NCBI GenBank assembly: GCA_964536005.1
Contig: CAZHXE010000001.1
Location: 7,067-31,066 of the forward strand
Source: an uncultured Candidatus Saccharibacteria bacterium
GTDB lineage: Bacteria > Patescibacteriota > Saccharimonadia > Saccharimonadales > JBPEXE01
Length of the DNA: 24,000 bases
Reading direction: 5' to 3'
Below are positions 5,501-24,000 of this stretch, one piece after another; position 1 is the stretch's first letter; each line of letters begins with the position of its first letter. The position numbers and the translations under genes are program-made. The notes beneath the pieces were generated by a model, which was not told where the DNA came from, searched no databases, and worked only from the letters and a program-made list of their open reading frames with translations.

Positions 5501-6834
5501 TTATAGCTTTGGCTTGGGAATCCACTCGCACCGTATTTATAGACACCGTTGCCACCGGAGACGCCGTTAGCCAGCGCGGATAAAATGCCACTCGTAACGG
5601 TGTTGTTGCTAAAATAGCTTTCGTTTACGGAGTAGCGGCCTTTTGGTGCATGATACGAAACTACGTAGGTTGTGTTGGCGGCAATCGCGACCGGTGATCC
5701 AAAATTTGCCGTCTGCCAGCCACTCGCTGTTTCGTTTGTGAATGTGACTGTTGCTAGCTTGTTGCCTGCGTTATCCCACAGGTTGCCTACGTGCGTACCG
5801 GTATTGGCGGTACCCTTATAAAACTTAAGCCCCACCACACTTGTTGCCTGTGAGCTCCTAAACTTCATACCCAATTCAACAGCGGCAGTGTCACTGTCGC
5901 TGAGTACTGCGGGCGTTGTAGTGTTTGGCCAAACGCTCGAGGTGCTGAGAGCTGTGTTATTGGTTGATATGGCGACTGGTGAGCTCGTTGCTGTGTTGCC
6001 AGCGGCATCTGTGGCCATGGCTGTGATAGTATGAACGCCATTTGGCAGAAGAGAACTATTCCAGGCAACCGAGTACGGGCTGGTTGTATCGGCGGAGCCC
6101 ACGTTATTGCCATCAACTTTAAATTGAACACTGCTAACACCAACGTTATCGCTGGCATTTGCTGCGAGGTTTATGGTGCCGCTCACTGAGGCGTTGTTAG
6201 CTGGACTTGTAACTGACACAGTTGGTGCCGACGTGTCGCTCGAATTGCTCGTTACTACATCTACCCAATAGTTGCTTTGGTTATAGCTTTGATTTGGGAA
6301 AGCAGAGCTTGAGCCGTATTTATAGACACCATTGCCGCCGTCGGTTCCGCTCTGTAAGGCTGTCAATGTGCCATTAGTGCGAGCTGACGCAAAATATCCT
6401 TCGGTGACTGAGTAATGGCCATTTGGCGCATAATAAGAAATTACGTAGGTTGTATCGGCGGCTATACCGATTGGGCTTGCAAAGCTGGCTTCTTGCCAGC
6501 CGCTGGCCGACTCACTGCCAAATGTGACAGTCGCAAGTTTGTTGCCGGCAGCGTCCCAGAGGTTGCCAACGTGTGTGCCGGTGTTAGCAGTACCCTTGTA
6601 AAATCGTAGGCCGGTGACGGTTGTGGCGACAGAACTTCTGAACTTCGTTCCTAGCTCTACTCCGCTAGTGTCGGGGTCGCTCAGAACAGCTGGCGTATCG
6701 GATGGCGCCCAAATGCTAAGTGCTCTAGATGACTTAGGAAATAAGACTGCAAAACTGCCAAATGACAGCAAGGCAGCCAGTGTAAAAATACTTAGCTTCT
6801 TGCTAAGGTGTTTTTTGCGCTGGCGCAATATCAT
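2575..6834 (-). CDS. giant secreted surface protein: 3x DUF4082-like modules, bacterial Ig-like domains, large central alpha/beta region
   Basis: The ORF-track entry 2575..6882 starts at GTG. The internal ATG at 6834 is preceded by AAAGGGG (SD) 6 nt upstream and gives a classic signal peptide, MILRQRKKHLSKKLSIFTLAALLSFGSFAVLFPKSSRA/LS. Three modules carry the signature ..VELG.KF.S...G.....YKG..NTGTH.G.LWD..G..LA..TF..E.ASGWQ...F..P......TYV.SY....G.YS.......NYWVD. They lie at approx. nt 6250-6720, 5475-5937 and 2578-3015 and match my recollection of DUF4082. Segments such as PTVTEVIPGNNATNVATDTTIAALMSEPIDETTVTTANVTL look like SbsA/Big_5-type Ig domains. Confidence 0.9.
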   Translation of the reverse strand: MILRQRKKHLSKKLSIFTLAALLSFGSFAVLFPKSSRALSIWAPSDTPAVLSDPDTSGVELGTKFRSSVATTVTGLRFYKGTANTGTHVGNLWDAAGNKLATVTFGSESASGWQEASFASPIGIAADTTYVISYYAPNGHYSVTEGYFASARTNGTLTALQSGTDGGNGVYKYGSSSAFPNQSYNQSNYWVDVVTSNSSDTSAPTVSVTSPANNASVSGTINLAANASDNVGVSSVQFKVDGNNVGSADTTSPYSVAWNSSLLPNGVHTITAMATDAAGNTATSSPVAISTNNTALSTSSVWPNTTTPAVLSDSDTAAVELGMKFRSSQATSVVGLKFYKGTANTGTHVGNLWDNAGNKLATVTFTNETASGWQTANFGSPVAIAANTTYVVSYHAPKGRYSVNESYFSNNTVTSGILSALANGVSGGNGVYKYGASGFPSQSYNASNYWVDILVADTSDTTKPTVTEVIPGNNATNVATDTTIAALMSEPIDETTVTTANVTLTNTQTQAVVTSSISYNTSTNAINIVPQAALDAGTSYQASLSTGVKDIAGNSLASAYSWNFTTVTGPATEIDPLSQGHDGPILIVTDNDNPFSAYYSEILRAEGLNSFKTVELADVNSVLLGQYDVVLLGDMALSDNQVTTLTNYVNNGGNLIAMHPDKKLANLLGLTDQASVMSDAYMQVNTSQSPGSGIVGETMQYHGSADNYTAQIGTQTVATLFSSSTATTNNPAVTIRSVGVNGGQAAAFTYDLAKSIVYTHQGNPAWSGDERDGSAPIRPNDLFYGAKVGDVQPDYVNLNKVMIPQADEQQRLLANIIADVNEDSKPLPKLAYFPYNKKAVVVMVADDHATATGTVSALNHQLAESTPGCVVEDWECIRSTSLIYTSTPVADTQALGYYNQGFDFGVHASTGCNDWTPTSLANAYASELADFQAKYTSLPAQHVNRIHCIAWSTYAEGAKIGAAVGLRQDLNYYYWPGSWVQNRPGFMTGSGMNMRYADLDGKLIDTYQLPSHLVNESGQTFPQNINVLLDRALGSEGYYGAFGTHYDYSDQFDRQLVASAKARGVPLVSGQQMLDWTDARNNSYFTNSSWNGSEFSFSATVDAKARSMMRGLMPLSSKNGVLLSLAKDGQNVSFTTETIKGVSYAVFTTTSGTYTASYGQDTTAPIVTSASPTNNATGVNVQTNVEVSFSEPLDSATANNANVQLLDGQTPVAATISYAPANNTIVIDPSSALTPNKTYSVSIATSVTDANGVALAIPYTSQFTAGVTTYSFWAPSPQTVSTITDADVELGIKFTSSQNGAISQIHYYRGASDGLTSHTMTLWDSNGVALGTATTANETASGWQTATFASPINITAGATYTASYRSPTGLYSFTSAGLANPIANGPLSTLVSGGVYRYGGGFPTSSFNNTNYWIDVTLQ

Positions 6835-6853
6835 GCTATACCCCTTTATTGTG

Positions 6854-7144
6854 TTACATAAAGTAGTATATATTACAGACACATCTGTTGGAAAGTGCTA
6901 GCGCTATCCCACGAGCATTGTTGAATCCCTTCGCATTGCTATAGCGACAGATGACTTTGTTTTCGTAAACTTCTGGTTCTTGTAGTGTTATCTGGCCTAG
7001 GTCTTTGGTGTCAATGATTTTGTGGGTTTTGTATCTTTTTGTCCATTTGGTGCTAAACCTGCCCTCGGCGCGATCCCTAAAGCGGGCTTCCGGTGTGCGG
7101 TCTTTGTACCATATAGGTCTTCGTCCCTTGGTGTAGTTTGGCAA
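6854..7144 (-). CDS. hypothetical basic 96-aa ORF (doubtful)
   Basis: The ORF starts at TTG and is Lys/Arg-rich (PNYTKGRRPIWYKDRTPEARFRDRAEGRFSTKWTKRYKTHK...). Its 3' end overlaps the leader/promoter region of the giant gene. I see no SD and recognise no family. It fills an otherwise empty 300-bp gap, so it could be a gene remnant. Confidence 0.2.
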   Translation of the reverse strand: MPNYTKGRRPIWYKDRTPEARFRDRAEGRFSTKWTKRYKTHKIIDTKDLGQITLQEPEVYENKVICRYSNAKGFNNARGIALALSNRCVCNIYYFM

Positions 7145-7184: not shown

Positions 7185-8525
7185 TTACCTCTGCCTAATA
7201 CCAACTGGACCGCCATCAGAGGCGCCAGTTATGCCAGGTGAATTTGCTGCAAGCTTAAAACCTTCCCAAGTGGTTGGGTTTGACCCACCTTCAAACACGG
7301 GCACACCGCTGAAATTTTGTCCACTCACGCCCGAGCGCAACATGTTGTTGCGATTAACTGCGGCAGTAGAGCTGTTTTGCAGACTCACTACGTAGGCAAC
7401 GTTGTCATACACTTGTGTACCAGTACCGACCGGGTCAGACGTCTTTCGGCTGAGTATTATATGACCACAAGGCGCATAGTCGCAGGTGGTGCGGTACACC
7501 AGCGTGTTGTAGCGGACAATTGAATTCGTGTCGGAATAGAGCTCTATCCCCCATCGCCCACTTTGGATGTCTACAACGTTGTTTTCTATGAGTACGTTAT
7601 CCACTCCATCGTATGCAACGATTCCGTCGGCGACATTGTGAATATAGTTACCTCGTACGATTGAACCAGTCGCGCCGATGAGCTGGATTGGATCGGAGTG
7701 TGGAGAGGTATCCCACCACCCCGTGCAAACCGCGCCATGCTCCGCGATATCATCGAATTCGTTATTGATAATGTTGACACCCACACCTGACTGAATACCG
7801 TCCTTATGTCCACCTTTGAAAAGAGAGTTCCTAACGGTTACGCCGGAGTGTGTTGCTTGAGAATATGGAAAATGTATGGCGCCAGCTGGCACGTCTGCAC
7901 AGGCGTAGGTGCCAGATCCTGAACTTGGGAAGTTAATATTGATGTGAGTGTTGCTATCAAGCAAAATATTGGAATTTGTGACCCCATCTATGGTGAGCGA
8001 AGTGGTGAAAGCAGTGTTCTTGATGGTTATGTCCTTTGCGCCGTTCAGGATTGTGCCGCCCGCTCCCGACAGCCCATCAAGCGTAAATCCGTTGTCGCCG
8101 GTAGTAAAGTTAAACAACATGGTTGCCGTAGCACCGGCCGCTGCCTTGATGGTTATCGCCTTGTTCGTGCCAGCGAATGTGCCGTAATTGCCACTCGCCA
8201 GACATATGGTCTGACCAACAGTGGCAGCAGTAATCTGCGATGCCAGGGTGGTTGCATTTGAGGCATTCAGATCGCACGTCCCGCCTGTGCTGACGGGGTT
8301 GAATTGTAAAAAGGATGAGCCAGAGGCCGTGCCATCAGACGCAACTGATGTATCGTTGGCACTGACATATGTTTCACCTTCGGCCACCTTTGCATTAGGT
8401 GACGTTGCCGCAAAAGAACGATACAGGATAATTGATCCTACGGCCGCAAACGCAACGGCAAAAAGAAGTGGCAGACCGCTGTTTGGCCGCTGGAAATTTA
8501 GAGATTTAGAGAAAAGCTTTTTCAT
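7185..8525 (-). CDS. secreted right-handed parallel beta-helix (pectate-lyase-fold) protein
   Basis: It has an ATG start and an N-terminal signal anchor (LPLLFAVAFAAVGSIILYRSFAA), then the shared PNAK..ASGSSFLQF module. Repeated beta-helix rungs follow: ITIKNTAF, ILLDSNTHI, VTVRNSLF, VNIINNEFDDI, IVRGNYIHNVADGI, VLIENNVVDI, IVRYNTLVY (PbH1-like repeats). Confidence 0.85.
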   Translation of the reverse strand: MKKLFSKSLNFQRPNSGLPLLFAVAFAAVGSIILYRSFAATSPNAKVAEGETYVSANDTSVASDGTASGSSFLQFNPVSTGGTCDLNASNATTLASQITAATVGQTICLASGNYGTFAGTNKAITIKAAAGATATMLFNFTTGDNGFTLDGLSGAGGTILNGAKDITIKNTAFTTSLTIDGVTNSNILLDSNTHININFPSSGSGTYACADVPAGAIHFPYSQATHSGVTVRNSLFKGGHKDGIQSGVGVNIINNEFDDIAEHGAVCTGWWDTSPHSDPIQLIGATGSIVRGNYIHNVADGIVAYDGVDNVLIENNVVDIQSGRWGIELYSDTNSIVRYNTLVYRTTCDYAPCGHIILSRKTSDPVGTGTQVYDNVAYVVSLQNSSTAAVNRNNMLRSGVSGQNFSGVPVFEGGSNPTTWEGFKLAANSPGITGASDGGPVGIRQR

Positions 8526-8703
8526 GTTCTTTTCTATTTATTACTGTAGACAATAGTAACAGTATAAGCGTAATTGATTTGAAATTAAACGAGCCTTGTT
8601 CCTGTTGTGCTTGCTCATGCATACATCATATCCCAAAGGTACTGCACTTCCTGAAATTGCTCCTGGACTCTTAGCATGACGGATACGCTTAATGCTATTT
8701 GCT

Positions 8704-8732
8704 GTATATAGTTTATAATGTAAACTATATAC
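8704..8732 (+). promoter_or_regulatory. perfect 12-bp inverted repeat (candidate MarR operator) overlapping a TATAAT -10 box
   Basis: GTATATAGTTTA (8704-8715), spacer TAATG, TAAACTATATAC (8721-8732). The right arm ends one base before the MarR ATG at 8733. A consensus TATAAT lies at 8714-8719, only 14 nt from the ATG, and there is no SD in between. Confidence 0.6.
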
Positions 8733-9185
8733 ATGAAACCAATTTCCGAATTCTCTACATACCGAACAGGAATTCTGCAGGCGAAGGCGTACAGAAATCT
8801 TAAAAACTTTATGTACAGAACACTCAAAAAGCATGATTTAACATCCACGCAGTGGTCTATACTGGGCGTTATTAGCGATGAAACAAAAAATGGTGGAATC
8901 CGTGTCAGTGACCTGGCGGATATGCTTGATGTGAAGCGTTCATTTATAACCAATATGGTAAAAAAACTGATCGAAAATGGATACGCCGAGCATGCTTATG
9001 ACGAAGATGACGGACGAGTAAGGCTTGTGATCGCTACCGACAAAGCGCACCTAAAGGTAGTTGAAATTGAGCGCTACATGCGCAAAGAGATGCGCGAGTG
9101 GCTAAGTGATATCGAGCATCAAGATCTGGTTAGATACATCATGGTTCTGGATAAAATCTCACTTAAAAACAACACTCATAGTTAA
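8733..9185 (+). CDS. MarR-family transcriptional regulator
   Basis: 150 aa. LTSTQWSILGVISDETKNGGIRVSDLADMLDVKRSFITNMVKKLIENGYAEHAYDEDDGRVRLVIATDKA is a typical MarR winged-helix core: an LT..Q..L start, then the recognition helix, then the DxRxxxxxLT-like wing. Confidence 0.9.
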   Translation: MKPISEFSTYRTGILQAKAYRNLKNFMYRTLKKHDLTSTQWSILGVISDETKNGGIRVSDLADMLDVKRSFITNMVKKLIENGYAEHAYDEDDGRVRLVIATDKAHLKVVEIERYMRKEMREWLSDIEHQDLVRYIMVLDKISLKNNTHS

Positions 9186-9263
9186 GCTGGGTTAACCATA
9201 TTTTACTTAACTAAGTTAACTATCTATACTTACTCGTAGTTAGTAAATAACGAGAGGAAGTAT

Positions 9264-9893
9264 ATGACACATTCAGTAATCGGGCTTGCAATCTTAGGAT
9301 TAGTTATCGGAGGCGCTGGCGGCTATGCCATTGGTAGCAGCATGAATGACGACTCCGAGCAGGACACGATGTCGCAACAAAATGAGAATCAGAGCATGTC
9401 ACAGGACAGCGACGGAGTGACCGTAGGTGGCGCCAAAATGGTTCGTTCCCTCGACATTGTAGAGAACGCAGCCAAAGCAAGTAACGTAACTACGGTGGTT
9501 GGTCTGGTCGAGCAAGCTGGGCTTGTCGATACGCTCAAGGGTGTGGGTCCATTTACGGTATTTGGCCCAAACAACGCCGCATTCGAAGCGGTTGACCCAG
9601 ATGTACTGGCTACAGTCGCAGGCGACAACGCGCTACTAAGAACGGTCCTTACCTACCACGTAGTACCAGGTACATACACATCTGCCGACTTGCGTGCACT
9701 CGCAAACAGTGGCGATAGCGTGAAAACTGTACAAGGTACCGAGCTGTCATTCAAGATCGTTGATGGTAACCTTGTTGTCGTAGACAAAGTTGGCCAAGAA
9801 GTAATGATCGAGACTGCCGACGTCATCTCGTCAAATGGCGTAACTCACGTCATCAAGAACGTGCTTCTGCCAGTTGACCCATCGACTCTTTAA
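9264..9893 (+). CDS. fasciclin (FAS1) domain protein, membrane-anchored/secreted
   Basis: SD GAGAGGAAG lies upstream of the ATG, and there is an N-terminal TM segment (VIGLAILGLVIGGAGGYAIG). FAS1 signatures are present: TVFGPNNAAFEAV, LTYHVVPGTYTSADL, SNGVTHVIKNVLLP. Confidence 0.9.
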   Translation: MTHSVIGLAILGLVIGGAGGYAIGSSMNDDSEQDTMSQQNENQSMSQDSDGVTVGGAKMVRSLDIVENAAKASNVTTVVGLVEQAGLVDTLKGVGPFTVFGPNNAAFEAVDPDVLATVAGDNALLRTVLTYHVVPGTYTSADLRALANSGDSVKTVQGTELSFKIVDGNLVVVDKVGQEVMIETADVISSNGVTHVIKNVLLPVDPSTL

Positions 9894-12278: not shown

Positions 12279-13259
12279 TTACTTTTTCTTAGATGCTATT
12301 TTTAGAGTGAATTGTTGGACGTCTTGGCCACGCAGCTCGGGATAGATGCTCATTTGAAATATCCAATTTAAAATAAGAAAACGTGTCAGCTCTCTCAGGT
12401 GCTTAACTAGAGAGTTAAGCGCGTTAACATCATCCTCAAACTCTTTGATGGATCTGCCGAGCTTATATTTATGTAGGCCATCTTTCTTGGGTATGTGCTT
12501 GGCTGTCGGATAAAGGCCATTATGAATACTTCCGTTTCGGATGCGATACTTACAGGCGTCGATGACCGCCTTGTATTGCTTTCTGTTGGTGTCTGACTCA
12601 ATTTGAGAAAATAATTGTTGGTCAAACCATTTGTTGTTATTGATCGAACTATGTTTTAAGCCTTGCCTTCCACAATCATTACAGCTTACGAAGTTTGCGC
12701 ATTCAGGCGGCGCGCCTAATAGGGTCTCGATGATCGTAAAGTAGACAACAACCTGCCAGTAGCTCACATCTATATTCCTCAAAGAGAACGGTTTCAGGCT
12801 GCCTGCCACAAAATAATTAATTATCGACGTGTAGACCCTTACGTCTACTTTTAAAAATAGCTTGTATAGCTCCTCATAACTGATGGAGTTTTGGGTCAGA
12901 GCATCAAATACCTCGTCTAACACCTTTTCCTGGTCAAGGTATCTGTCATGGGCGACATGTTCACGTTGAACCTTTGCAAGCTCAGGGTTAAGCACATACG
13001 CCTGAGGGTTAGCATAGTAATCTACAAGCTCTACAGAATCAGTAAGCAAAGCATGAAAGTATAGCCATTTTTCATATTCATCGTTGTCCTTAATATCCAC
13101 TGCACGTATTGTTCTGCCAAAGTGCATACTGCCATCTTTTTCGACTTTTACATCAGGCCCGGGAGTCAACGAAAAGTACGGCAGATCTATGCGATTTTTC
13201 GGGGGGAGCCAGGTAGGGATAAAAAACTTACTACTTTTTGTCGATTCGTCATCGTTCAT
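12279..13259 (-). CDS. hypothetical protein with HEPN-like Rx4H motif (candidate Abi-type RNase)
   Basis: 326 aa with SD GAGG 7 nt upstream of the ATG. R241-N-G-S-I-H246 (nt 12522-12539, CGA AAC GGA AGT ATT CAT on the minus strand) fits the HEPN Rx4-6H signature with the common polar residue after Arg. It is embedded in KYRIRNGSIHNGLYP and preceded by a helical YFTIIETLLG segment and a CNDC pair. I recognise no other family. Confidence 0.75.
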   Translation of the reverse strand: MNDDESTKSSKFFIPTWLPPKNRIDLPYFSLTPGPDVKVEKDGSMHFGRTIRAVDIKDNDEYEKWLYFHALLTDSVELVDYYANPQAYVLNPELAKVQREHVAHDRYLDQEKVLDEVFDALTQNSISYEELYKLFLKVDVRVYTSIINYFVAGSLKPFSLRNIDVSYWQVVVYFTIIETLLGAPPECANFVSCNDCGRQGLKHSSINNNKWFDQQLFSQIESDTNRKQYKAVIDACKYRIRNGSIHNGLYPTAKHIPKKDGLHKYKLGRSIKEFEDDVNALNSLVKHLRELTRFLILNWIFQMSIYPELRGQDVQQFTLKIASKKK

Positions 13260-13441
13260 ACTGAATACCTCGAAGTTTCATTTAAGGTGATGTTATATAA
13301 CAGTTTAGACCAGTCAAACAACAATGTGCTACTTCATGAAATATCGGGAGCTGTGCACTCTATTGTTGGCTGCAATAGGGCTTCAATTTGCTCAGAATAA
13401 CCAAGTAAAGACATCATCACAACAATGGCACATATGCTTGT

Positions 13442-13580
13442 TGATACCAAGGAGAAAGCGGCTTCGCCTTCTCCGCTTCGCTCCATCGAACTCCCTTGAC
13501 GGAGTTCGATGCTCATCGACATGCACCACGAAGAAAGCCTACCATGTGGTGAGCTATTATCGTTGTGAAATACCATGTAT
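13442..13580 (+). repeat. structured direct repeat, copy A (more degenerate copy)
   Basis: It aligns by hand with 15523-15662, with 12 mismatches over the first 126 positions. There are identical blocks of 36 nt (13447-13482) and 28 nt. Hairpins: 13451-13474 (GGAGAA-A-GCG GCTT CGC-C-TTCTCC), 13487-13508 (CGAACTCC cttgac GGAGTTCG) and 13524-13567 (long hairpin with two mismatches relative to copy B). It lies in the 437-bp gap between the SEFIR gene stop and the HEPN-motif gene start. Confidence 0.85.
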
Positions 13581-13696: not shown

Positions 13697-15220
13697 TTAA
13701 GGTAGTTCAGCGATACGATCTGGCAACATCTTTGTAAATAAAGGAACGTTGAAGTTCCAACCAGCATTGTAGTTAATTTTTGATGTTACTTCGACTGCGG
13801 CTTCATACGCTTTTTGTAATTCGCCCACAGACTTCATGCCAAACATAGCTGAAATCTCGTCTGCACGTGATTTTGATATAAGCTCACCTAGTGGGTCAAT
13901 CAATTCCTCACTTCTATGGCTGTATACGGACAAGCGCGGGAACCACCAGTTATACCTGTTGTCGGGAAAATTGAACCTAGTCAGTAGGTACAGCAAACTG
14001 TCAGCATTGCGTAATTCGTCAAAGTCTAAGCCATCAAACTTAACTGCGTGCTCTTTTTGTATGTCTGCCGCAACACTGACACGGTTGAGGTTCAGCCTAC
14101 TATTTCTATAGTCATCCAGTGTTCGCATGTGCTGGTAGAAATCTGTAAAGGTCACAGCACGTAATTCGCCAAGGTGTGTTTTATAGAAGTAAGTCCTGTT
14201 AATCAGATTATGCACTACGCTGAAACGTCTGTGTTTGACTAACAAAGCCACAATACCCGTTGCAAGCTCGTGAACAACAAAACCGACGTTCTCGTAGTCG
14301 CTGTCACGCCAGGAGTTCACTCCAGGCAGCGGTGCTTGCTTGGCTTTAGCTGAGGTTAATAGTTTATCTATTTCTTCGGTCAATTTTTTATCATCGAGCT
14401 GACCATTCATAAGTAGCCCATCCAGTTCGTTAAGCATTGCGTTGGTGTATGGCTGCATAGATTCAATGCTCTCTAGTACTTTTTCGTCCACAGGTGTGTC
14501 GCCAGCTCCAACTTTCCTCAGCTTATCGAGTGCTTGAAGAAATGTTGCAGTAACTGCCTGGAGTCCAGAACGTGGTTTCTCTGCGTCAACCTGCTGCTCG
14601 GCTGTCTTTGGCAGCTTTTCGGCTGGATGCTTAGCTGTGCCTGTGAATGTTGGGATAGATCCAAGTACTGGCTTTACATACTTTGGCTGATTGTAGATGT
14701 GCCTAATAAGGTCATCGAAGTTTGCGTCAAACTGCGATTCGTCTGTGAAGTCGATGTAATGCCGTGATTTCATATACGTTGGTAAGCACGGTTTACCGTC
14801 CTGATTACGCTCAAATACTAGAGGAACTACTTTTGTCTGGTCAATCTTTTCATACACCTCAGGGCTAATCAGCTGCGTCTCCGTGCCTACGCCACCTCTT
14901 CGAGCATCTGCTTTTTCGGCATACTTTTTGTCCGCTATGACGAGTACGTGAGTGACGGCTTTGTCTGTCACTGATTGCTCCATAAATTTGTTCAGTTCGT
15001 GTCCTGGCTTGTTGTCGTAGATGTCAAGAATTACATCAATACCCTTGCCAAGCAATCTATCAGCAAACAACCTAACTCGCTCCTTGTGTTCTGGGTCGGA
15101 CCAGGCGTAAGACAAGAATGCCTTAGGGTGCTCGGTGCTACCCTGTGCGATTGACTTTAGCGCACCATCATCTGGTTTTAGTTTCTTATCATCATCTGTC
15201 TTATTAGGTTTGTTAGCCAT
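13697..15220 (-). CDS. SEFIR/TIR-like domain protein with uncharacterised ~320-aa C-terminal domain (candidate anti-phage NADase-type effector)
   Basis: 507 aa. Residues ~33-175 read AFLSYAWSDPEHKERVRLFADRLLGKGIDVILDIYDNKPGHELNKFMEQSVTDKAVTHVLVIADKKYAEKADARRGGVGTETQLI...VVPLVFERN...HYIDFTD. This matches my recollection of the bacterial SEFIR/TIR (flavodoxin-like) signature: F.SY.W, GIDV.LD, FMEQS, GGVG.E. The C-terminal part is helical-looking and carries no motif I recognise. Confidence 0.8.
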   Translation of the reverse strand: MANKPNKTDDDKKLKPDDGALKSIAQGSTEHPKAFLSYAWSDPEHKERVRLFADRLLGKGIDVILDIYDNKPGHELNKFMEQSVTDKAVTHVLVIADKKYAEKADARRGGVGTETQLISPEVYEKIDQTKVVPLVFERNQDGKPCLPTYMKSRHYIDFTDESQFDANFDDLIRHIYNQPKYVKPVLGSIPTFTGTAKHPAEKLPKTAEQQVDAEKPRSGLQAVTATFLQALDKLRKVGAGDTPVDEKVLESIESMQPYTNAMLNELDGLLMNGQLDDKKLTEEIDKLLTSAKAKQAPLPGVNSWRDSDYENVGFVVHELATGIVALLVKHRRFSVVHNLINRTYFYKTHLGELRAVTFTDFYQHMRTLDDYRNSRLNLNRVSVAADIQKEHAVKFDGLDFDELRNADSLLYLLTRFNFPDNRYNWWFPRLSVYSHRSEELIDPLGELISKSRADEISAMFGMKSVGELQKAYEAAVEVTSKINYNAGWNFNVPLFTKMLPDRIAELP

Positions 15221-15226
15221 AGTTAT

Positions 15227-15255
15227 ATTATCTCAGCTGTTGCGAACCATACCAA
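15227..15255 (-). promoter_or_regulatory. candidate sigma70-type promoter giving a leaderless SEFIR mRNA
   Basis: The minus strand reads TTGGTA (15255-15250), a 17-nt spacer, GATAAT (15232-15227), ATAACT, then the ATG at 15220. The -10 box ends 6 nt before the start codon and no SD is present. Confidence 0.4.
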
Positions 15256-15522
15256 GCATTAGCGTGATAATCTTGTAGAGTCCTTTCAGAGACTATAAGT
15301 TTGATGCACTACCATGAGGCATTATTTCAATGCTGATATGGCTAATGGATTCATAGTCATAATAAGATTAAAACATTAACTGGTTAGAGTAGTAAATATT
15401 TCATGCTCTATTATGAATCATATATATTCAGAGCCGCCAATATCAAGTTACAGCCCAAGTAAAGATTGATCATGGATTTGACGGTCTGCTGAACAACTGC
15501 TCCAAATTTCGATTTTCACTGG

Positions 15523-15662
15523 TGATTCCAAGGAGAAAGCGGCTTCGCCTTCTCCGCTTCGCTACGCCGAACTCCCTTGACGGAGTTCGATGCTCGTCGA
15601 CAAGCACCACGAAAAAAGCCCACCGTTTGGTGAGCTATTTTCGTGGTGAGCCCACGGGGTAT
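15523..15662 (+). repeat. structured direct repeat, copy B (better-paired copy), directly upstream of the HKD nuclease gene
   Basis: Same element as 13442-13580. Hairpins: 15532-15555, 15568-15589 (8-bp stem) and 15605-15648. The last is CACCACGAAAA AAGCcCACC gttt GGTGaGCT A TTTTCGTGGTG, with an 11-bp outer stem plus an inner stem. It ends ~70 nt before the probable nuclease start at 15731. Confidence 0.85.
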
Positions 15663-15712: not shown

Positions 15713-16237
15713 ATGAGCTGGAGGTCTTTGATGAAGTTATTTAGGAGCCATAGGAGCACGCGTATTGCTGATGATTTACTTAGATCTACTCTATTTGATG
15801 AGGAAAGTTTCTTCAAGATTATGAGTAGTGACATTAAGTCAGCACAAAAAGAAATTATAATTGAAAGTCCATTCGTAACCATACGTAGAGCATCTGAAAT
15901 TAGTAAGCTCTTTGAAAGGCTGCATGAAAAAGGCGTTAGTGTAATCGTGCACACTCGCAATCCCGAACACCACGATGGAAACCTAAAATTCCAATCTGTA
16001 CGAGGGATCGCTATTCTCCGTGAGTCTGGAGCAAAAGTAAAGATTCATGATGATATGCGACATCGTAAAATATGCATAGTAGACCGGCGTATTCTGTGGG
16101 AAGGAAGTTTAAACATGCTTTCACACAGCAGCAGTAAGGAAATAATGAGAAGAACCGAGTCCGAAGTATTATCCAAGCAGATGTTAAGATTTGCGAAACT
16201 CCACAAAAGTTTGAATGGTATACTACAGATATTATGA
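15713..16237 (+). CDS. single-HKD phospholipase-D-superfamily nuclease (Nuc-like)
   Basis: H117-R-K-ICIV-D-RRILWE-G-S-L-N134 (nt 16061-16114) is a perfect HxK(x)4D(x)6GSxN motif. The ~170-aa size and single motif are as in the homodimeric Nuc/BfiI-type nucleases. The likely true start is the second ATG at 15731 (MKLFRSH...), which has GGAGG (15720-15724) 6 nt upstream. Confidence 0.88.
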   Translation: MSWRSLMKLFRSHRSTRIADDLLRSTLFDEESFFKIMSSDIKSAQKEIIIESPFVTIRRASEISKLFERLHEKGVSVIVHTRNPEHHDGNLKFQSVRGIAILRESGAKVKIHDDMRHRKICIVDRRILWEGSLNMLSHSSSKEIMRRTESEVLSKQMLRFAKLHKSLNGILQIL

Positions 16238-17599: not shown

Positions 17600-18910
17600 A
17601 TGGATTCGCTAGTTGCCCTTAGTTCTTGGGTGGCTAACTTCGCAGTAGTGAATGCAGACATTCAAAACTACTTGCGGCCTATTATGGTCGCGTTGATTAG
17701 TCTGGCAGGCGTAGCGAGCGCATTTTTCTTAGTACTTGGTGGGTTTGAGTACATGACGAGTTCTGGCAAGCCAGATAAGTTAGAGCATGCCAAAAAAGTG
17801 TTACGCAATGCACTGATTGGGTTATCTATGGTGATTGCAGCCGGAGCATTAACAGCGATTTTGACGAGTGCTTATACCGAGACGGGTGGCTCATCCACTC
17901 TTGAAAGCGTGCCCGTACTGCAACCTGCCGAAATAAACGATGAAGGCGGCGGCGTTACCGAAGTGCTCATTAACTCTATTATTGGATTGTTTAAGCATTT
18001 TGTAGATTCTGCTGCCTCGCCAATTATTAATGCGGTTGATCACTTTACCAAAAACACTCCGCTCATGGCAGACAACAAAGGTGTACTGAATCTGTGGCTG
18101 GGTGTGCTTGGTATCTCAAATGCTCTTCTGGTACTTGTCGTGGCGTTACTAGGGTTCCAAGTTATGAGTGCGGCATCGCTTGGACTTGATGAAATTGAGT
18201 TTAAGCATCTGTTACCGAAGATAGGCGCAACGTTTCTGATTATGAATATGTCGATATTTGCTATCGATGCAGTGATAAGCCTCACCAATGTCATGATATC
18301 CGCCATAGCTAGCGCTACTGGTACACAGACTGTGTTTAACACGCTTTCTGATGTGATGAGTGATGCGGGCAAGCAAGGTTTGGTATCGCTACTTCTTATG
18401 ATCGTATTCATAGTACTCTCTGTTTTGTTATTAGTTTACTACGTCGTTCGCGTCGTTACTTTGTATGTTGGTGCTGTCCTGTCGCCAATGGTAGTGCTTT
18501 TGCAGCTAGTTCCTGGATTCCGCGACTTTACTACCCTAGCGGTGAAAGCTTACATATCAACGATTTTTAATCTATTTGTGCACGTAATAATCCTGGCAAT
18601 TGCTGCAACACTTTTTGTTGGATTAGCAGGGCCGGACGAATCAGGCTATAACCCGCTCATGTCACTTGTTGGAGGAATTGCGGCTATATTCACACTGCTC
18701 AAAACCCAGCAAGTCATGATGCAGTTGAGTTATGCCAGCAACGGATCCCGAGCTTTGCGTAAAATGGGAACTGAATTTATCAGCGGTATTAGCTACATGG
18801 CTGAGCGGCGCAGGCGTCAAAGTGATGACATTGATTCAAGCAGTGGTGCGGGAAATGGAAATAGTACGACATCACGTAAACCAAAACCAGTTAAAGAGGG
18901 ATATCAATGA
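17600..18910 (+). CDS. VirB6/TrbL-like polytopic membrane protein with an N-terminal pilin-like module
   Basis: 436 aa. Residues ~20-95 (IQNYLRPIMVALISLAGVASAFFLVLGGFEYMTSSGKPDKLEHAKKVLRNALIGLSMVIAAGAL) align with the preceding pilin (VENFIRSVIQVVAGLSGLIATGFFVVGGFGYITSSGNPEVLQKSKRTIFYSGMGLAITIGAFIL). The remainder has 5-6 further TM helices and a polar Ser/Gly/Lys tail, as in VirB6/TrbL/PrgH-type proteins. Confidence 0.75.
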   Translation: MDSLVALSSWVANFAVVNADIQNYLRPIMVALISLAGVASAFFLVLGGFEYMTSSGKPDKLEHAKKVLRNALIGLSMVIAAGALTAILTSAYTETGGSSTLESVPVLQPAEINDEGGGVTEVLINSIIGLFKHFVDSAASPIINAVDHFTKNTPLMADNKGVLNLWLGVLGISNALLVLVVALLGFQVMSAASLGLDEIEFKHLLPKIGATFLIMNMSIFAIDAVISLTNVMISAIASATGTQTVFNTLSDVMSDAGKQGLVSLLLMIVFIVLSVLLLVYYVVRVVTLYVGAVLSPMVVLLQLVPGFRDFTTLAVKAYISTIFNLFVHVIILAIAATLFVGLAGPDESGYNPLMSLVGGIAAIFTLLKTQQVMMQLSYASNGSRALRKMGTEFISGISYMAERRRRQSDDIDSSSGAGNGNSTTSRKPKPVKEGYQ

Positions 18911-19416
18911 AAACAACCATAGTGCCAGCTCAAATTACATCCGTCGAAGACAAAGTCGTCGGCAATATATCTGTTAAACAGCTACTTTTGCTTATGTCAC
19001 CTGTTTTTTTGGGAGTCGTCATTTTTGCATTCTTGCCCCCATTTATCAAATATACAACTTTGAAACTTGCCATCGTTTCTACCATCGTGACTGTTTGTTC
19101 TGTATTGGCGATTCGTTGGCGCGGCAAGCTTGTTGCTGAGTGGATCGCAATTATGAGTCGTTACAACTCACGACCCCGCCACTACGTATACAGCAAAAAG
19201 GATTCGTTTCTTCGTCCTAAGCATTCTTCTGCAAAACGTATTGAGCTAGAAGTCCCAATAGTTGCAGAAGAACAGCCAGAAACCGATTTTGCAGCGAAGC
19301 TAGCCCCATCAGAATTCGTAAGACTCGAACATGCAATAGAAAATCCGGCAGCAAATTTTAGGTTCAGCGTTACCCGTAAAGGAGGCCTCCGTGTCCATAT
19401 TAAAGAAATCCGTTAA
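18907..19416 (+). CDS. PrgI-family (VirB3-like) T4SS membrane protein
   Basis: It has an ATGA overlap with the upstream gene. VPAQITSVEDKVVGNISVKQLLLLMSPVFLGVVIFAFLP followed by a second TM helix matches my recollection of the PrgI family. Its position immediately upstream of VirB4 is as for VirB3. Confidence 0.7.
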   Translation: MKTTIVPAQITSVEDKVVGNISVKQLLLLMSPVFLGVVIFAFLPPFIKYTTLKLAIVSTIVTVCSVLAIRWRGKLVAEWIAIMSRYNSRPRHYVYSKKDSFLRPKHSSAKRIELEVPIVAEEQPETDFAAKLAPSEFVRLEHAIENPAANFRFSVTRKGGLRVHIKEIR

Positions 19417-20002
19417 ACCACTAAGCTCTCGTCGGCAAATTCGAATCGAGGGCGTGCATGACGGTATCCTCATACTGCCGAACGGCGAGTACAGACTTGC
19501 CTTAGAAACATCGTCTATCAATTTTGAGCTTATGAGCGAAACAGAGCAGGATGCGATTATCGACACGTATCAGAGTTTTTTGAATTCACTCAATACGCCG
19601 TTTCAAATTCTTGTGAGAGTACGCGAACTTGATATGGATAAATACATTAGTTCGTTTCGTGAAAATCAAACATCGTCAGATGAAGAAGCTTTTACCGACC
19701 AAACTACGAGCTATACCCAATTCGTGAAAGGATTGGTCAGTGATAACAAGATTCTAACTCGCAGTTTCTATGTTGTTTTACCTTATAGTTCGAATGGCAA
19801 AGACTTTGAAGTAGTGAAAGAGCAGCTAAAACTAACGGGCGACATTGTAAGCAAAGGCTTAGGGCGTATGGGAATGCAGTCGCGCAGGCTATCGAGTCTT
19901 GAAGTGCTTGATCTGTTCTATAGTTTTTATTCTCCAAAACAAGCTAAACGACAGCCACTCACCGAGCAAACACTGTCTATGCTAAAGGAGAGCTACCTAT
20001 GA
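19391..20002 (+). CDS. VirB4-like ATPase, N-terminal domain encoded as a separate ORF
   Basis: The GTG start at 19391 has AAAGGAGG 5-6 nt upstream. RRQIRIEGVHDGILILPNGEYRLALETSSINFELMSETEQDAIIDTYQSFLNSLNTPFQILVRVRELDMDKYI resembles the N-terminal region of Gram-positive VirB4 homologues (PrgJ/TcpF/CD1110-type). 203 + 583 aa together approximate a full-length VirB4. Confidence 0.7.
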   Translation: MSILKKSVKPLSSRRQIRIEGVHDGILILPNGEYRLALETSSINFELMSETEQDAIIDTYQSFLNSLNTPFQILVRVRELDMDKYISSFRENQTSSDEEAFTDQTTSYTQFVKGLVSDNKILTRSFYVVLPYSSNGKDFEVVKEQLKLTGDIVSKGLGRMGMQSRRLSSLEVLDLFYSFYSPKQAKRQPLTEQTLSMLKESYL

Positions 20003-21750
20003 GCATTGAAATGTTGTTAAACCCAAAGCAGACGTTGAAAGATTGGCAGCAAAAGAGAGCTGAGGAGCCGAAAAACTTTACATTTGATTATGGCCAGCAA
20101 GACCCTATGGACATCATTAGCTACGCAGGGCTGGAAGAACAAGCAGATCACTTGGTGATCGATGGTCGCTACATTAGAAGCCTATACATATCTGGATATC
20201 CTTTTGTAGCACATTCTGGCTGGCTTAATAGCTTGATTAACTTTAACAGCAATATAGATATTAGTTACCACATGAGCCAGGTTGAAGCGACTCAGGCACT
20301 GCCTAAACTTAACCGTAAAATCACTGAGCTTGAGAGTACGAAACGAGCCATGATCCGCTCTGGAAAAATTGTTGGGCCTGAAGTTACCGACCCTCTAGAT
20401 TCCGCAATGGAATTACGTGACAAAATCCAACGTGGCCAAGAAATGCTGTTTCAGGCAGCAATATATGTTTCTTTGAGTGCTGATAGTTTAGAGGAACTTG
20501 AAAAGCTAACAACTTTGCTTGAAACAACACTGTCGGCGCGATTGTTTTTTACCAAGACTGCACGTTACCAGCAGGTAGAAGCACTGCAAGCTGTGCTACC
20601 TAGGGCAGAAGATCGATTAGAACAGCGACGCAACCTAGATAGTTCATCTGCTGCTCTGACTTTCCCTTTTATGAGTAGTGAGATGGTACACGAAAAAGGT
20701 ATTCTGTACGGTGTTAACAAATCCAATAACTCACTTGTAATCTTAGATCGGTTTAGTTTACACAATGCTAATTCAATCATATTCGCGCAAAGTGGTTCTG
20801 GCAAAAGTTACGCAAGTAAAGTTGAAATTTTGCGCCAATTGATGCAGGGTACCCATGTAATCGTTATTGACCCAGAACGTGAATATAAACTGTTAAGTGA
20901 AAAGGTTGGTGGCAGTTACATCAAGCTTTCTACAAACTCACAGCAGAAAATAAATCCGTTTGATCTATCCTCTACTACAAACAGTAAACGTGATTTGAGT
21001 GAGCATATTCAAGACTTAACTGAGATTGTGAGTTTGATGGTGGATGGTCTGAGCCCTAAAGAAAAGGCATCTTTAGACAAAGCGCTGATAAATCTATATA
21101 AACGGAGCGATGACAACAAACCCCTTCTCAAGGATCTGTACCACGAATTGCGATTACTCGACCAAGCAAAGTTAACTGAAAGATTGGAACGTTTTGTAAG
21201 TGGATCTTTATCTGACGTATTTAACAATCAAAGCAATGTGAGCTTAGATAACAAACTGGTAATTTTTGATATCAAAGACATGCCTGAAAGCATGCGCCAA
21301 CTAATGATCCTGATTATTTCACATCATGTTCAAAATGAAGTTAAGAACAATCCCCGCAAGAGACTGCTAGTTATTGATGAAGGCTGGTTGTTGTTGGAGC
21401 ATGAAGAGTCGGCACGATTTATTGCAGGATTAGTACGGAGAGCTCGAAAATATTACCTTGGCGTTTCAATCATCACCCAGCAAGCGAACGACTTTTTGAA
21501 AAACGATTACGGAAGAGCCATAGCGTCCCAAAGCGCACTACGTATTTTGATGCGGCAGGATACCACAACCATTAAAAATGTCGTAAACGAATTTAATTTG
21601 AGCGAGTATGAAGACAACTTTTTACTGACTTGTGATAAAGGCGATGCCCTTATTATCGCAGATCAAAATCATGCGGCAGTGCGTGTAGTAGCGTCTAAAG
21701 AAGAACACCCCCTCATAACTACTAATCCTCAAGAACTCTATGGATTATGA
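19999..21750 (+). CDS. virB4: VirB4-like T4SS ATPase (C-terminal ATPase part)
   Basis: It has an ATGA overlap with the preceding ORF and AAGGAG (19985-19990) 8 nt upstream. Walker A is AQSGSGKSY (GSGKS at nt 20794-20808) and Walker B is RLLVIDEGW. The following ...GLVRRARKYYLGVSIITQQ region is typical of the VirB4/DUF87 family. Confidence 0.92.
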   Translation: MSIEMLLNPKQTLKDWQQKRAEEPKNFTFDYGQQDPMDIISYAGLEEQADHLVIDGRYIRSLYISGYPFVAHSGWLNSLINFNSNIDISYHMSQVEATQALPKLNRKITELESTKRAMIRSGKIVGPEVTDPLDSAMELRDKIQRGQEMLFQAAIYVSLSADSLEELEKLTTLLETTLSARLFFTKTARYQQVEALQAVLPRAEDRLEQRRNLDSSSAALTFPFMSSEMVHEKGILYGVNKSNNSLVILDRFSLHNANSIIFAQSGSGKSYASKVEILRQLMQGTHVIVIDPEREYKLLSEKVGGSYIKLSTNSQQKINPFDLSSTTNSKRDLSEHIQDLTEIVSLMVDGLSPKEKASLDKALINLYKRSDDNKPLLKDLYHELRLLDQAKLTERLERFVSGSLSDVFNNQSNVSLDNKLVIFDIKDMPESMRQLMILIISHHVQNEVKNNPRKRLLVIDEGWLLLEHEESARFIAGLVRRARKYYLGVSIITQQANDFLKNDYGRAIASQSALRILMRQDTTTIKNVVNEFNLSEYEDNFLLTCDKGDALIIADQNHAAVRVVASKEEHPLITTNPQELYGL

Positions 21751-22373
21751 TCCCGATCGCTTCATGGCTTCTCAAAAACTCTAAAACCGAGATTAAGTTA
21801 GTTCTTGCAACCATTGCACTATTGATTACCTTGCCAGCTCTTAGCGTTGTGGTTGTCGCTAGCTCAGGCATTCAGCTTGTTGGCGATGCAATAGCAGCAG
21901 TAAATCCAGTCACCCATCTTGTGGAGATATTTGGGCCGAACGGTGATAAGGTCGATGAGATTGAGCTGTCGACAACATGGCCAGTAAGCGGTACAGTTAC
22001 TGACGAGTTCGGCACAAGTGAAACATGGCGCCGACTACTTGGGCTCGGTTACCACACTGGAATAGACATAACTAATGCTATGTACACACCCATTACACCT
22101 TTTACCAGTGGAACAGTGCTTGCAGTGGATAATACTGATGATTCAGCATGCGGTAAAAGTATAACTATTAAGCATACTGATCGTCTCAAGTCGCAGTATT
22201 GTCACTTGGATTCAGCCGTTGAGTACGCAGTTGACTCACCTGTGGTGCCAGGGGATGTTATTGGCTATCTTGGCAGTACCGGTACTTCAACAGGTCCGCA
22301 TTTGCACTTTATGATTTATGTTTATGGTATTCCTGTTAACCCAAGGACGTTTATGGTAGGTGAGCCGAATTAG
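21747..22373 (+). CDS. M23-family (LytM-type) peptidoglycan metallopeptidase, T4SS-associated
   Basis: It has an ATGA overlap with virB4 and an N-terminal TM helix. M23 motifs are present: YHTGIDI (HxxxD) and GSTGTSTGPHLHFMIY (HxH). Confidence 0.9.
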   Translation: MIPIASWLLKNSKTEIKLVLATIALLITLPALSVVVVASSGIQLVGDAIAAVNPVTHLVEIFGPNGDKVDEIELSTTWPVSGTVTDEFGTSETWRRLLGLGYHTGIDITNAMYTPITPFTSGTVLAVDNTDDSACGKSITIKHTDRLKSQYCHLDSAVEYAVDSPVVPGDVIGYLGSTGTSTGPHLHFMIYVYGIPVNPRTFMVGEPN

Positions 22374-23298: not shown

Positions 23299-24000
23299 TT
23301 ACAAAATCACTTCTTCCTGTGGAAGTCTGTGAATTAGCTTTTCACCTTCGTTGCGCGAATTGCCGACTTCACTGCTAACTGGGTAGATTTCCAAACCGTC
23401 ATCGTCGTATGGCTTGAGGAGATCAGCAATCGACTCGGGTGTTTCGTTAGATGGCTCTAGCCAGCGTTCTTCATCGTCTGGCTTTAATATGACTGGCATT
23501 CTATCGTGAAGGTCGCTCATTTCTTTATTAGGCGTCGTCGTTAAAATTGAAAACGACTCTATAACTTCCCCTGTTGCTTTATCCGTCCACTGGGAATATA
23601 CCCCAGCCATCGCAAACAGGTCACTATCTTTTGGACGGATGAAATAAGGCTGCTTCTTGCTGCCGTCCTTCTTCCACTCATAGAAACCGTTTGACGGTAC
23701 TAAGCAGCGTGCATGTAACACTGGTCGCTTCCAAGTATTCTTTTCAAATACAGATTCGCTACGAGCATTGATAAGTTTGTAACCAATACTCACATCTTTT
23801 GCCCACACTGGAATAAGGCCCCATCGCATAGGCATCAGATGTCTTTTGTCTTCAGCCTTGATAACTACCGGCAGATTTTGTCCAGGAGCAGCATTGTAAC
23901 GTTCTCGTAAGTGCTCAAGTAACTCATCGAGCTCTTGGTCACTAACTTTAAAACGCCGAGCAAGCTCACCAGTTTGGAATATTGTGTATCGTCCGCACAT
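23299..24000 (-). CDS. SOS-response-associated peptidase (SRAP/YedK/HMCES family)
   Basis: The N-terminus MCGRY (catalytic Cys2) sits exactly at the window edge. NAAPGQ, MRWGLIPVWAK, INARSE, RCLVPSNGFYEW and AMAGVY are SRAP-family landmarks as I recall them. Confidence 0.9.
   Translation of the reverse strand: MCGRYTIFQTGELARRFKVSDQELDELLEHLRERYNAAPGQNLPVVIKAEDKRHLMPMRWGLIPVWAKDVSIGYKLINARSESVFEKNTWKRPVLHARCLVPSNGFYEWKKDGSKKQPYFIRPKDSDLFAMAGVYSQWTDKATGEVIESFSILTTTPNKEMSDLHDRMPVILKPDDEERWLEPSNETPESIADLLKPYDDDGLEIYPVSSEVGNSRNEGEKLIHRLPQEEVIL

What the first reader, a model, noticed from the sequence alone, without database searches (positions are those of the whole stretch)
13697..15220. SEFIR/TIR-domain protein with an unrecognised 320-aa C-terminal domain
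The N-terminal ~140 aa carries a SEFIR/TIR-like signature (AFLSYAWSD.., GIDVILD, FMEQS, GGVGTE with Glu114).

TIR-family domains in bacteria are established NAD+-consuming or signal-generating immune effectors. To my recollection, a single-gene SEFIR anti-phage system has been reported: a SEFIR domain plus an uncharacterised C-terminal region, with an NAD+-depletion phenotype.

The C-terminal region here (residues ~190-507) has no motif I can place. It is presumably the sensor. The gene appears leaderless and sits in a low-GC island of a genome that otherwise looks reduced and CPR-like. Defence systems are considered sparse in such genomes, so a functional SEFIR system there would be notable.
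Basis: partly seen in the sequence, partly recalled or inferred. Interest (0 to 1): 0.7.

Follow-up and report, generated by a model that had tools for sequence, protein, structure and literature searches.

The report
Known bSEFIR anti-phage gene in CPR
This gene is an ordinary full-length member of the already described single-gene bSEFIR anti-phage family, which is reported to kill infected cells by destroying NAD+; it sits in a mobile, low-GC island of a Saccharibacteria-like (CPR) genome, and its "unrecognised" C-terminal half is simply the family's own conserved, structurally uncharacterised domain.

Summary
Window 13697-15220 (-) is an intact 507-aa ORF with an N-terminal SEFIR/TIR domain carrying all the quoted motifs, including Glu114. 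The whole protein, C-terminal half included, matches PADLOC's bSEFIR model (E=6e-92, residues 28-473) and phage family phrog_11745 (E=7e-109). At least 191 full-length relatives of 470-510 aa occur in many phyla. Residues 32-187 are about 50% identical to the crystallised B. cereus SEFIR domain (5Y8E). Glu114 is invariant in 70/70 aligned relatives.

The C-terminal domain (about 218-507) models confidently (pLDDT 93) as a mostly helical fold. It has no Pfam, PDB or viral-structure match and no housekeeping assignment. It is rarely fused to other N-termini (a kinase, a ParA-like ATPase).

The host looks like Saccharibacteria. The closest relatives (66-68% identity) also lie on CPR-like contigs inside integrase/R-M islands, so this window is one of a small CPR clade and not a first. 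"Leaderless" is plausible but unproven.

Side finding: a structured 130-nt direct repeat brackets the gene.

Verdict: new member of a known kind, with modest interest.

The parts
13697..15220 (-). bSEFIR gene, 507 aa (stop codon 13697-13699)
   Evidence: ORF. PADLOC bSEFIR PDLC03957 E=6.2e-92, residues 28-473 vs profile 35-390/412. phrog_11745 E=7.1e-109. 191 homologs, nearly all 470-510 aa.
15134..15220 (-). N-terminal extension (residues 1-29), specific to this subclade
   Evidence: Most family members start about 30 residues later (consensus). The extension is shared with the 44-74% identical relatives, e.g. P0012 with A-L-x-x-I-A-x-G-S-T just before the SEFIR domain. Low pLDDT with a short helix at 19-25. 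ATG 15220 is the only in-frame start, with an in-frame TGA five codons upstream.
14660..15133 (-). SEFIR (STIR-clan) domain, residues ~30-187, the predicted NADase effector
   Evidence: Pfam TIR_2 and SEFIR. 5Y8E B. cereus SEFIR domain E=4.9e-29 by phmmer, 1e-52 by profile. Foldseek 5y8e/5y8f TM 0.84-0.88.
14879..14881 (-). Glu114 codon in the G110-V-G-T-E114 motif, the candidate catalytic residue
   Evidence: Translation. Invariant in 70/70 sequences. Shared RRGGVGTET motif with 5Y8E. Human Act1 has His at this column.
15023..15025 (-). Asp66 codon (GIDVILD), invariant; probably equivalent to the SEFIR-SEFIR interface Asp mutated (D40A) in the published system
   Evidence: Invariant. Translation. 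D40A abolishes defence in Bacillus sp. NIO-1130. The equivalence is inferred from motif position and was not aligned to that sequence.
14570..14659 (-). Disordered linker, residues ~188-217
   Evidence: pLDDT below 50 for residues 192-217.
13700..14569 (-). Conserved bSEFIR C-terminal domain, residues ~218-507; mostly helical with a small beta hairpin; putative sensor/regulator
   Evidence: AF2 pLDDT 93.2, pTM 0.91. Invariant E318 and P428; near-invariant Y344, S382, A385, D407, W426. No PDB or BFVD fold match. No PDB sequence-profile match. 751 representatives found by exhaustive HMMER.
15227..15255 (-). Promoter-like site TTGGTA-17-(TG)GATAAT, ending 7 nt before the ATG
   Evidence: Consensus scan only. 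No SD-like motif upstream. Compatible with a leaderless mRNA but not shown.
15520..15649 (.). Upstream copy of a 130-nt structured direct repeat, lying between the PLD-like gene and bSEFIR
   Evidence: the repeat finder D1. Alignment. Three hairpins, MFE -74.6 kcal/mol, z=-7.7. The independent Logan contig L001 ends inside it.
13439..13568 (.). Downstream copy of the 130-nt direct repeat (90% identical), 129 nt after the stop codon
   Evidence: Fold z=-5.0. Its hairpin A is degraded relative to the upstream copy.
15713..16237 (+). Divergent neighbour: small PLD-like (HKD) nuclease, 174 aa; a recurrent neighbour, not shown to be part of the system
   Evidence: Pfam PLDc_2 E=5.3e-11. PADLOC MkoC C-terminus E=3.8e-14 and DrmC E=5.6e-5. 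A 44%-identical PLDc_2 gene lies divergently upstream of the 68%-identical bSEFIR in L005.

Best explanation
The gene encodes a canonical single-protein bSEFIR abortive-infection defence. The N-terminal SEFIR (TIR-like) domain is the effector. When activated it hydrolyses NAD+ to ADP-ribose and nicotinamide, which starves the infected cell and the phage. The conserved helical C-terminal domain, joined by a disordered linker, most likely holds the enzyme inactive and senses an unknown phage cue. Activation probably works by letting SEFIR domains associate, as in other TIR-type NADases.

The gene sits as a cargo cassette in a low-GC mobile/defence island next to a T4SS cluster in a Saccharibacteria-like CPR genome.

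Shown here: family membership, domain architecture, conservation of Glu114 and Asp66, and the island context. Taken from the literature for a Bacillus homologue: anti-phage activity and NAD+ depletion. Inferred: the sensor role of the C-terminal domain, activation by oligomerisation, and activity in this host.
For: Full-length match to PADLOC bSEFIR (E=6.2e-92) and phrog_11745 (E=7.1e-109). SEFIR domain about 50% identical to crystal structure 5Y8E (E=4.9e-29). Predicted fold TM 0.84-0.88 to 5Y8E/5Y8F, followed by Act1 SEFIR, SPARTA TIR NADases and SARM1 TIR. Glu114, Asp66 and the GVGTE motif are invariant in 70 relatives down to about 30% identity. The ORF is intact and the two-domain model is confident. 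The published homologue defends against phi29 and loses activity with an interface Asp mutation. SEFIR is described as a single-protein system that depletes NAD+ through its N-terminal SEFIR domain, and it is countered by the phage NAD+-reconstitution pathway NARP1. Context is defence/mobile: PLD-like nuclease, XRE regulator, T4SS genes and SRAP. Relatives lie beside integrase, resolvase and an R-M pair. The C-terminal domain also occurs fused to a Ser/Thr kinase (P0321) and a ParA-like ATPase (P0251), as expected for a portable sensor/regulatory module.
Against: There is no functional data for this protein or for any CPR homologue. Sequence alignment to characterised TIR NADases covers only betaA-betaB, so equivalence of Glu114 to the TIR catalytic Glu is not demonstrated here. 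In single-sequence Pfam scoring TIR_2 (55 bits) outscores SEFIR (42 bits), whereas the original authors required SEFIR to outscore TIR in their HHsearch screen. The trigger and the role of the C-terminal domain are unknown, and the domain has no structural analogue to guide inference. Alternative fusions of the C-terminal domain are very rare; most 'variant-length' hits were truncated bSEFIRs.
Confidence: 0.8

Rival explanations
1. The protein serves the mobile island and not the cell. It would act as an addiction or exclusion module carried by the T4SS-bearing element, for example killing cells that lose the element or blocking entry of competing plasmids/ICEs, using the same NADase chemistry.
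For: It lies in a low-GC segment with T4SS pilin/TrbL, PrgI, a VirB4-like ATPase and an M23 peptidase. Relatives sit beside integrases and resolvases. The gene is bracketed by 130-nt direct repeats, like a cassette.
Against: Defence genes are commonly cargo on mobile elements, so the location does not discriminate between the two readings. The family member that was tested acts against a phage. No antitoxin-like partner is conserved next to the gene across loci.
Confidence: 0.1
2. The SEFIR domain is a non-enzymatic adaptor, as in eukaryotic IL-17R/Act1, that recruits another effector such as the recurrent PLD-like nuclease next door. NAD+ hydrolysis would not be the killing activity in this clade.
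For: Eukaryotic SEFIR domains signal by homotypic interaction, and the published bacterial mutant (D40A) targets an interaction residue. A PLD-like nuclease recurs divergently upstream in two of the three distinct neighbourhoods examined.
Against: Glu114 is invariant across the bacterial family, while Act1 has His at that column, which fits catalysis. [quoted passage not shown] PLD is absent next to the 66%-identical relatives L002-L004.
Confidence: 0.07
3. The gene is a decaying or silent passenger acquired by horizontal transfer and is not expressed or functional in this reduced genome.
For: Atypical GC island. No SD. The downstream repeat copy is partly degraded.
Against: The 507-codon ORF is intact with every invariant family residue retained. 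Relatives at 65-74% identity are all full length, which indicates purifying selection. A plausible promoter abuts the start codon.
Confidence: 0.03

Closest known systems
bSEFIR single-gene anti-phage system (Bacillus sp. NIO-1130; Millman et al. 2022, preprint 10.1101/2022.05.11.491447; PADLOC PDLC03957)
   Same: Same architecture: N-terminal SEFIR domain plus a conserved ~290-aa C-terminal domain in a single gene. Full-length HMM match at E=6e-92. Conserved GVGTE Glu and ILD Asp. Located in a defence/mobile island.
   Different: About 30 extra N-terminal residues shared only with its subclade. Only ~30-35% identical to the bulk of the family. Host is a Saccharibacteria-like CPR bacterium and not a Firmicute. 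Activity untested.
BcSEFIR, crystal structures 5Y8E/5Y8F (B. cereus SEFIR domain, Yang et al. 2018)
   Same: Residues 32-187 align end to end with ~50% identity in the HMMER alignment (40% by Foldseek), E=4.9e-29. Predicted fold TM 0.84-0.88.
   Different: The crystal structure covers only the SEFIR domain. No solved structure covers the C-terminal domain.
TIR-domain NADase defence effectors (SPARTA TIR-APAZ, AbTIR, SARM1 TIR, Thoeris)
   Same: Same STIR-clan flavodoxin-like fold (Foldseek prob 1.0, E 4e-4 to 7e-3). The same NAD+ cleavage to ADPR and nicotinamide is reported for SEFIR.
   Different: Sequence similarity is limited to betaA-betaB. The partner and sensor domains differ: Argonaute/APAZ or ARM-SAM versus the bSEFIR C-terminal domain.
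Eukaryotic SEFIR domains (IL-17 receptors, Act1/TRAF3IP2; 9OT1, 3VBC)
   Same: Recognisable homology (Act1 E=0.0037 by sequence, Foldseek E=1e-4).
   Different: These are adaptors without known catalysis. Act1 has His where the bacterial family has invariant Glu114.

Membership tests
bSEFIR defence system | Full-length match to the family profile, covering both the SEFIR and C-terminal regions | tested here: met
   PADLOC PDLC03957 E=6.2e-92, 307.5 bits, protein 28-473 vs profile 35-390/412. phrog_11745 E=7.1e-109, residues 29-475.
bSEFIR defence system | SEFIR domain at the N-terminus | tested here: met
   Pfam SEFIR at residues 33-138. 5Y8E aligned to residues 32-187.
bSEFIR defence system | SEFIR similarity stronger than TIR similarity (the authors' HHsearch criterion against PDB70 and Pfam) | tested here: inconclusive
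   Against PDB the SEFIR domain wins by far: 5Y8E at 1e-52 versus the best TIR at 0.004. In the Pfam single-sequence hmmscan, TIR_2 (55.3 bits) outscores SEFIR (42 bits). HHsearch itself was not available.
bSEFIR defence system | Conserved functional residues: the interface Asp (D40 in the tested protein) and the family's conserved Glu | tested here: met
   D66 and E114 are invariant in 70/70.
bSEFIR defence system | Single-gene system with no obligate partner | tested here: met
   Neighbours differ among the window, L002-L004 and L005. Only a PLD-like gene recurs, in 2 of the 3 distinct contexts.
bSEFIR defence system | Protects against phage and depletes NAD+ on infection | not testable with these tools
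   Known only for the Bacillus homologue and S. thermophilus homologues.
TIR-type NADase (catalytic Glu) | Glu structurally equivalent to the TIR catalytic glutamate | tested here: inconclusive
   E114 is invariant, and the fold matches TIR NADases. Sequence alignments to AbTIR and others stop at betaB, and no residue-level structural superposition could be obtained.
Integron gene cassette (attC-flanked) | Flanking repeats are single long imperfect palindromes with R''/R' core sites, and an integrase lies nearby | tested here: not met
   The 130-nt repeat folds into three separate hairpins and not one attC-like stem. No integrase was found in the window.

The most novel reading that the evidence does not exclude
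The window represents a CPR-resident bSEFIR clade that moves as a repeat-bracketed cassette. Structured direct repeats flank the gene in two independent loci, with a PLD-like nuclease just outside the upstream repeat. Its C-terminal domain is a previously undescribed, portable phage-sensing fold that is reused with kinase and ParA-like effectors. An NAD+-destroying suicide system in an episymbiont with a reduced genome would also raise the question of how such cells balance NAD+ supply and immunity.
Probability: 0.15. Interest if true: 0.55.

Novelty: new member of a known kind. Interest (0 to 1): 0.3.

Why it matters
As a family assignment the result is routine. PADLOC or DefenseFinder would call this gene bSEFIR automatically.

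Three things give it modest value. First, it documents, together with its 65-74% identical relatives, that NAD+-depleting abortive-infection genes circulate in Saccharibacteria-like CPR genomes on mobile islands; few CPR defence inventories list such systems. Second, the bSEFIR C-terminal domain models with very high confidence yet has no structural or sequence analogue, so it is a good target for structural work on how SEFIR systems sense phage. Third, the repeat-bracketed arrangement hints at how the gene moves.

Tried and rejected
1. NCBIfam scan of the protein: no family.

2. Two genome-contig scans (bSEFIR protein, DipZ neighbour) found no close relative among the GTDB representatives. 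Taxonomy was inferred instead from named homologs.

4. I suspected many alternative architectures for the C-terminal domain from the length spread. A family-specific SEFIR HMM showed that most are N-terminally truncated bSEFIRs. Only the kinase, ParA-like, HTH+SEFIR and one unknown-N-terminus fusions survive.

5. The 326-aa downstream gene as a partner or HEPN toxin. It contains RIRNGSIH (Rx4H) by eye, but has no Pfam, PADLOC, PHROG or PDB support and is not conserved beside other bSEFIRs. Rejected as part of the system.

6. The 130-nt repeat. No Rfam match even at E<=1. No tRNA. No exact copies of its cores in metagenome contigs (two scans) or viral contigs. No copies in the related loci. An attC/integron reading was rejected on structure.

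7. The final journal version of Millman et al. and a 2026 preprint could not be retrieved, so the published catalytic-residue mutant could not be checked.

Full report
**1. The observation**

Window 13697-15220 (minus strand) holds an intact 507-aa ORF starting at ATG 15220. An in-frame TGA lies five codons upstream. No other ATG/GTG/TTG occurs before the conserved residues that begin near codon 20, so the start is unambiguous.

All quoted motifs are present. GIDVILD is at residues 60-66 and GVGTE ends in Glu114 at codon 14879-14881.

Pfam gives TIR_2 (E=1.2e-14, residues 35-172) and SEFIR (E=1.5e-10, residues 33-138). Both are well above their gathering scores, and nothing matches residues ~190-507. 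NCBIfam has no model for the protein.

**2. What it is**

The decisive result is a full-length match to the PADLOC model of the bSEFIR defence system. The match is PDLC03957, E=6.2e-92, 307.5 bits, with protein residues 28-473 aligned to profile positions 35-390 of 412. A full-length phage protein family, phrog_11745, also matches at E=7.1e-109.

The "unrecognised" C-terminal 320 aa is thus the family's own conserved C-terminal domain.

A word-indexed search of 5.8 billion proteins returned 191 relatives. Nearly all are 470-510 aa and all carry SEFIR+TIR_2. Named sources include Microbacterium (52% identity), Stenotrophomonas, Luteimonas, Nitrospiraceae, Desulfomonile, Thermotogota and a "Patescibacteria group bacterium".

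The SEFIR domain is about 50% identical, end to end, to the crystallised B. cereus SEFIR domain 5Y8E (E=4.9e-29), and the two share the RRGGVGTET motif.

In a 70-sequence alignment reaching down to about 30% identity, S37, Y38, W40, D66, G110, V111, G112 and E114 are invariant. The C-terminal half has its own invariant E318 and P428, plus near-invariant Y344, S382, A385, D407 and W426.

**3. Structure**

AlphaFold2 with this alignment gives a confident two-domain model with mean pLDDT 84. It consists of:
- a flavodoxin-like SEFIR domain at ~30-187;
- a disordered linker at 192-217;
- a mostly helical C-terminal domain with one small beta hairpin.

Modelled alone, the C-terminal domain reaches pLDDT 93.2 and pTM 0.91.

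The full-length model hits 5Y8E/5Y8F (TM 0.84-0.88). After those come Act1 SEFIR, the SPARTA TIR-APAZ NADases, MyD88 and SARM1 TIR.

The C-terminal domain has no counterpart anywhere I could look:
- Foldseek against PDB: best E=0.11, TM below 0.3.
- Foldseek against BFVD viral structures: nothing at E<=1e-3.
- C-terminal-only profile against all PDB sequences: only de novo designed helical proteins.

**4. Is the C-terminal domain modular?**

An exhaustive HMMER search of 1.84 billion representatives with residues 205-507 found 751 proteins at E<=1e-3. Many have odd lengths.

A family-specific SEFIR HMM showed that most of these are N-terminally truncated bSEFIRs. The genuine exceptions are:
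- P0321: Ser/Thr kinase + C-domain;
- P0251: AAA_31/ParA-like + C-domain;
- P0312: unknown 234-aa N-terminus + C-domain;
- P0303: HTH + SEFIR + C-domain.

These rare fusions fit a portable regulatory or sensor module but do not prove one.

**5. Mechanism**

[quoted passage not shown] A mutation of an Asp predicted to mediate SEFIR-SEFIR contacts (D40A) abolishes that protection, and homologs occur in 460 genomes from more than 20 phyla (10.1101/2022.05.11.491447).

SEFIR is described as a single-protein system that depletes NAD+ through its N-terminal SEFIR domain, producing ADPR and nicotinamide. It is neutralised by the phage NAD+-reconstitution pathway NARP1 (10.1101/2024.02.11.579819). S. 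thermophilus homologs give narrow anti-phage activity (PMC12322248).

By homology, I conclude that the window's protein is an autoinhibited NADase whose C-terminal domain senses infection and licenses SEFIR association and catalysis.

What is shown here is family membership, architecture and conservation. What is inferred is the sensor role, activation by oligomerisation, and activity in this host.

One caveat concerns Glu114. Its equivalence to the TIR catalytic Glu is not demonstrated, because sequence alignments to AbTIR and other TIRs stop after betaB. The support is its invariance, together with the fact that the non-catalytic human adaptor Act1 has His at that column.

**6. Context and host**

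GC drops from about 0.49-0.54 to 0.38-0.46 at about 11.5 kb. The low-GC segment carries:
- the 326-aa unknown gene;
- bSEFIR;
- a divergent 174-aa PLD-like nuclease (PLDc_2; resembles the MkoC/DrmC nuclease modules);
- an XRE regulator;
- a T4SS set: pilin/TrbL, PrgI, a VirB4-like ATPase and an M23 peptidase;
- an SRAP gene.

The higher-GC flank encodes a DipZ/CcdA-thioredoxin fusion. All of its named best hits are Ca. Saccharibacteria/Saccharimonadales at 58-62% identity, on contigs up to about 1 Mb. The CPR attribution is therefore supported.

The system is not unique to this genome, however. The 66%-identical relative P0009 occurs on 11 contigs, in an island with a tyrosine integrase, a serine recombinase and an N6_N4 methylase + ResIII pair. 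The GluRS on that contig is Patescibacteria-like: 78% identity to a protein named "Ca. Nomurabacteria" and 73% to one named "Ca. Saccharibacteria". The 68%-identical relative P0004 again has a PLDc_2 gene divergently upstream, 44% identical to the window's.

**7. Leaderless claim**

No SD-like motif lies within 30 nt of the start. A promoter-like TTGGTA-17-(TG)GATAAT ends 7 nt before the ATG, which is compatible with transcription starting at the start codon.

The scan is consensus-only. Several other genes in the window (PLD, XRE, MarR and others) also lack an SD, and there are no transcript data. The claim is plausible but unproven.

**8. Side finding: the flanking repeat**

A 130-nt direct repeat, 90% identical, brackets the gene at 13439-13568 and 15520-15649. 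Each copy folds into three hairpins, with z-scores from -5.0 to -7.7. An independently assembled Logan contig ends inside the upstream copy.

The element has no Rfam match and no further copies in the window, in the related loci, or in the metagenome and viral scans.

L005 shows the same topology with an unrelated repeat, a ~71-nt aligned repeat that is part of a longer (~100-nt) hairpin at 5888-5958 and 8568-8638. An integron attC reading fails on structure and on the absence of an integrase. The element remains unexplained. A recombination scar or a dispersed intergenic element are the simplest options.

**9. Verdict**

This is a new member of a known kind: a standard bSEFIR gene in a Saccharibacteria-like mobile island, belonging to a small CPR-resident clade with a ~30-residue N-terminal extension. 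Interest is 0.3.

Noticed in passing
window 13439-13568 and 15520-15649: A 130-nt direct repeat (90% identical) with three strong hairpins brackets the bSEFIR gene, and an independent assembly (L001) breaks inside the upstream copy. No Rfam match, and no other copies in the window, the related loci, or the metagenome and viral scans. Its nature is unexplained; a cassette boundary, a recombination scar or a dispersed element are all possible.
   Followed up: partly
L005 5888-5958 and 8568-8638: The 68%-identical bSEFIR relative is also bracketed by a direct repeat (83% over 71 nt; a long hairpin with a terminator-like core). The upstream copy again lies between a PLD-like gene and bSEFIR. Its sequence is unrelated to the window's repeat. 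Further dispersed repeats occur at L005 1101-1196 / 9417-9509.
   Followed up: partly
window 15713-16237 (+); L005 5302-5781: A small stand-alone PLD-like (HKD) nuclease resembling the nuclease modules of Mokosh MkoC and DISARM DrmC lies divergently upstream of bSEFIR in two independent loci (44% identity between the two). It could be an independent defence gene or a functional partner.
   Followed up: partly
proteins P0321, P0251, P0312: The bSEFIR C-terminal domain is occasionally fused to other N-termini: a Ser/Thr protein kinase (615 aa), a ParA/AAA_31-like ATPase (649 aa) and an unknown 234-aa region (517 aa). This suggests a portable module.
   Followed up: partly
window 12279-13259 (-): A 326-aa orphan gene immediately downstream of bSEFIR has no Pfam, PADLOC, PHROG or PDB match and is alone in its 90% cluster. 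It contains a CxxC pair and an RIRNGSIH stretch that fits the HEPN Rx4-6H motif by eye only. It is not found beside other bSEFIR genes.
   Followed up: partly
window 17600-22373 (+): A T4SS-type cluster (T4SS pilin/TrbL-like 436 aa, PrgI-like 169 aa, unknown 203 aa, VirB4/TraG-P-loop 583 aa, M23 peptidase 208 aa) lies in the same low-GC segment. An SRAP gene at 23299-24000 (-) is 45% identical to the SRAP near the L003 bSEFIR.
   Followed up: no
window 2575-6882 (-): A 1435-aa protein with three DUF4082 domains plus Big_5 and Big_7 Ig-like domains, probably a surface protein, sits in the higher-GC part of the window. A beta-helix protein lies next to it at 7185-8525.
   Followed up: no
window 8000-9500: A local GC dip (0.41-0.45) occurs around the MarR gene (8733-9185). 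The MarR start has no SD, and a TATAAT lies 13 nt upstream of its ATG, so it is another possibly leaderless or short-leader gene.
   Followed up: no
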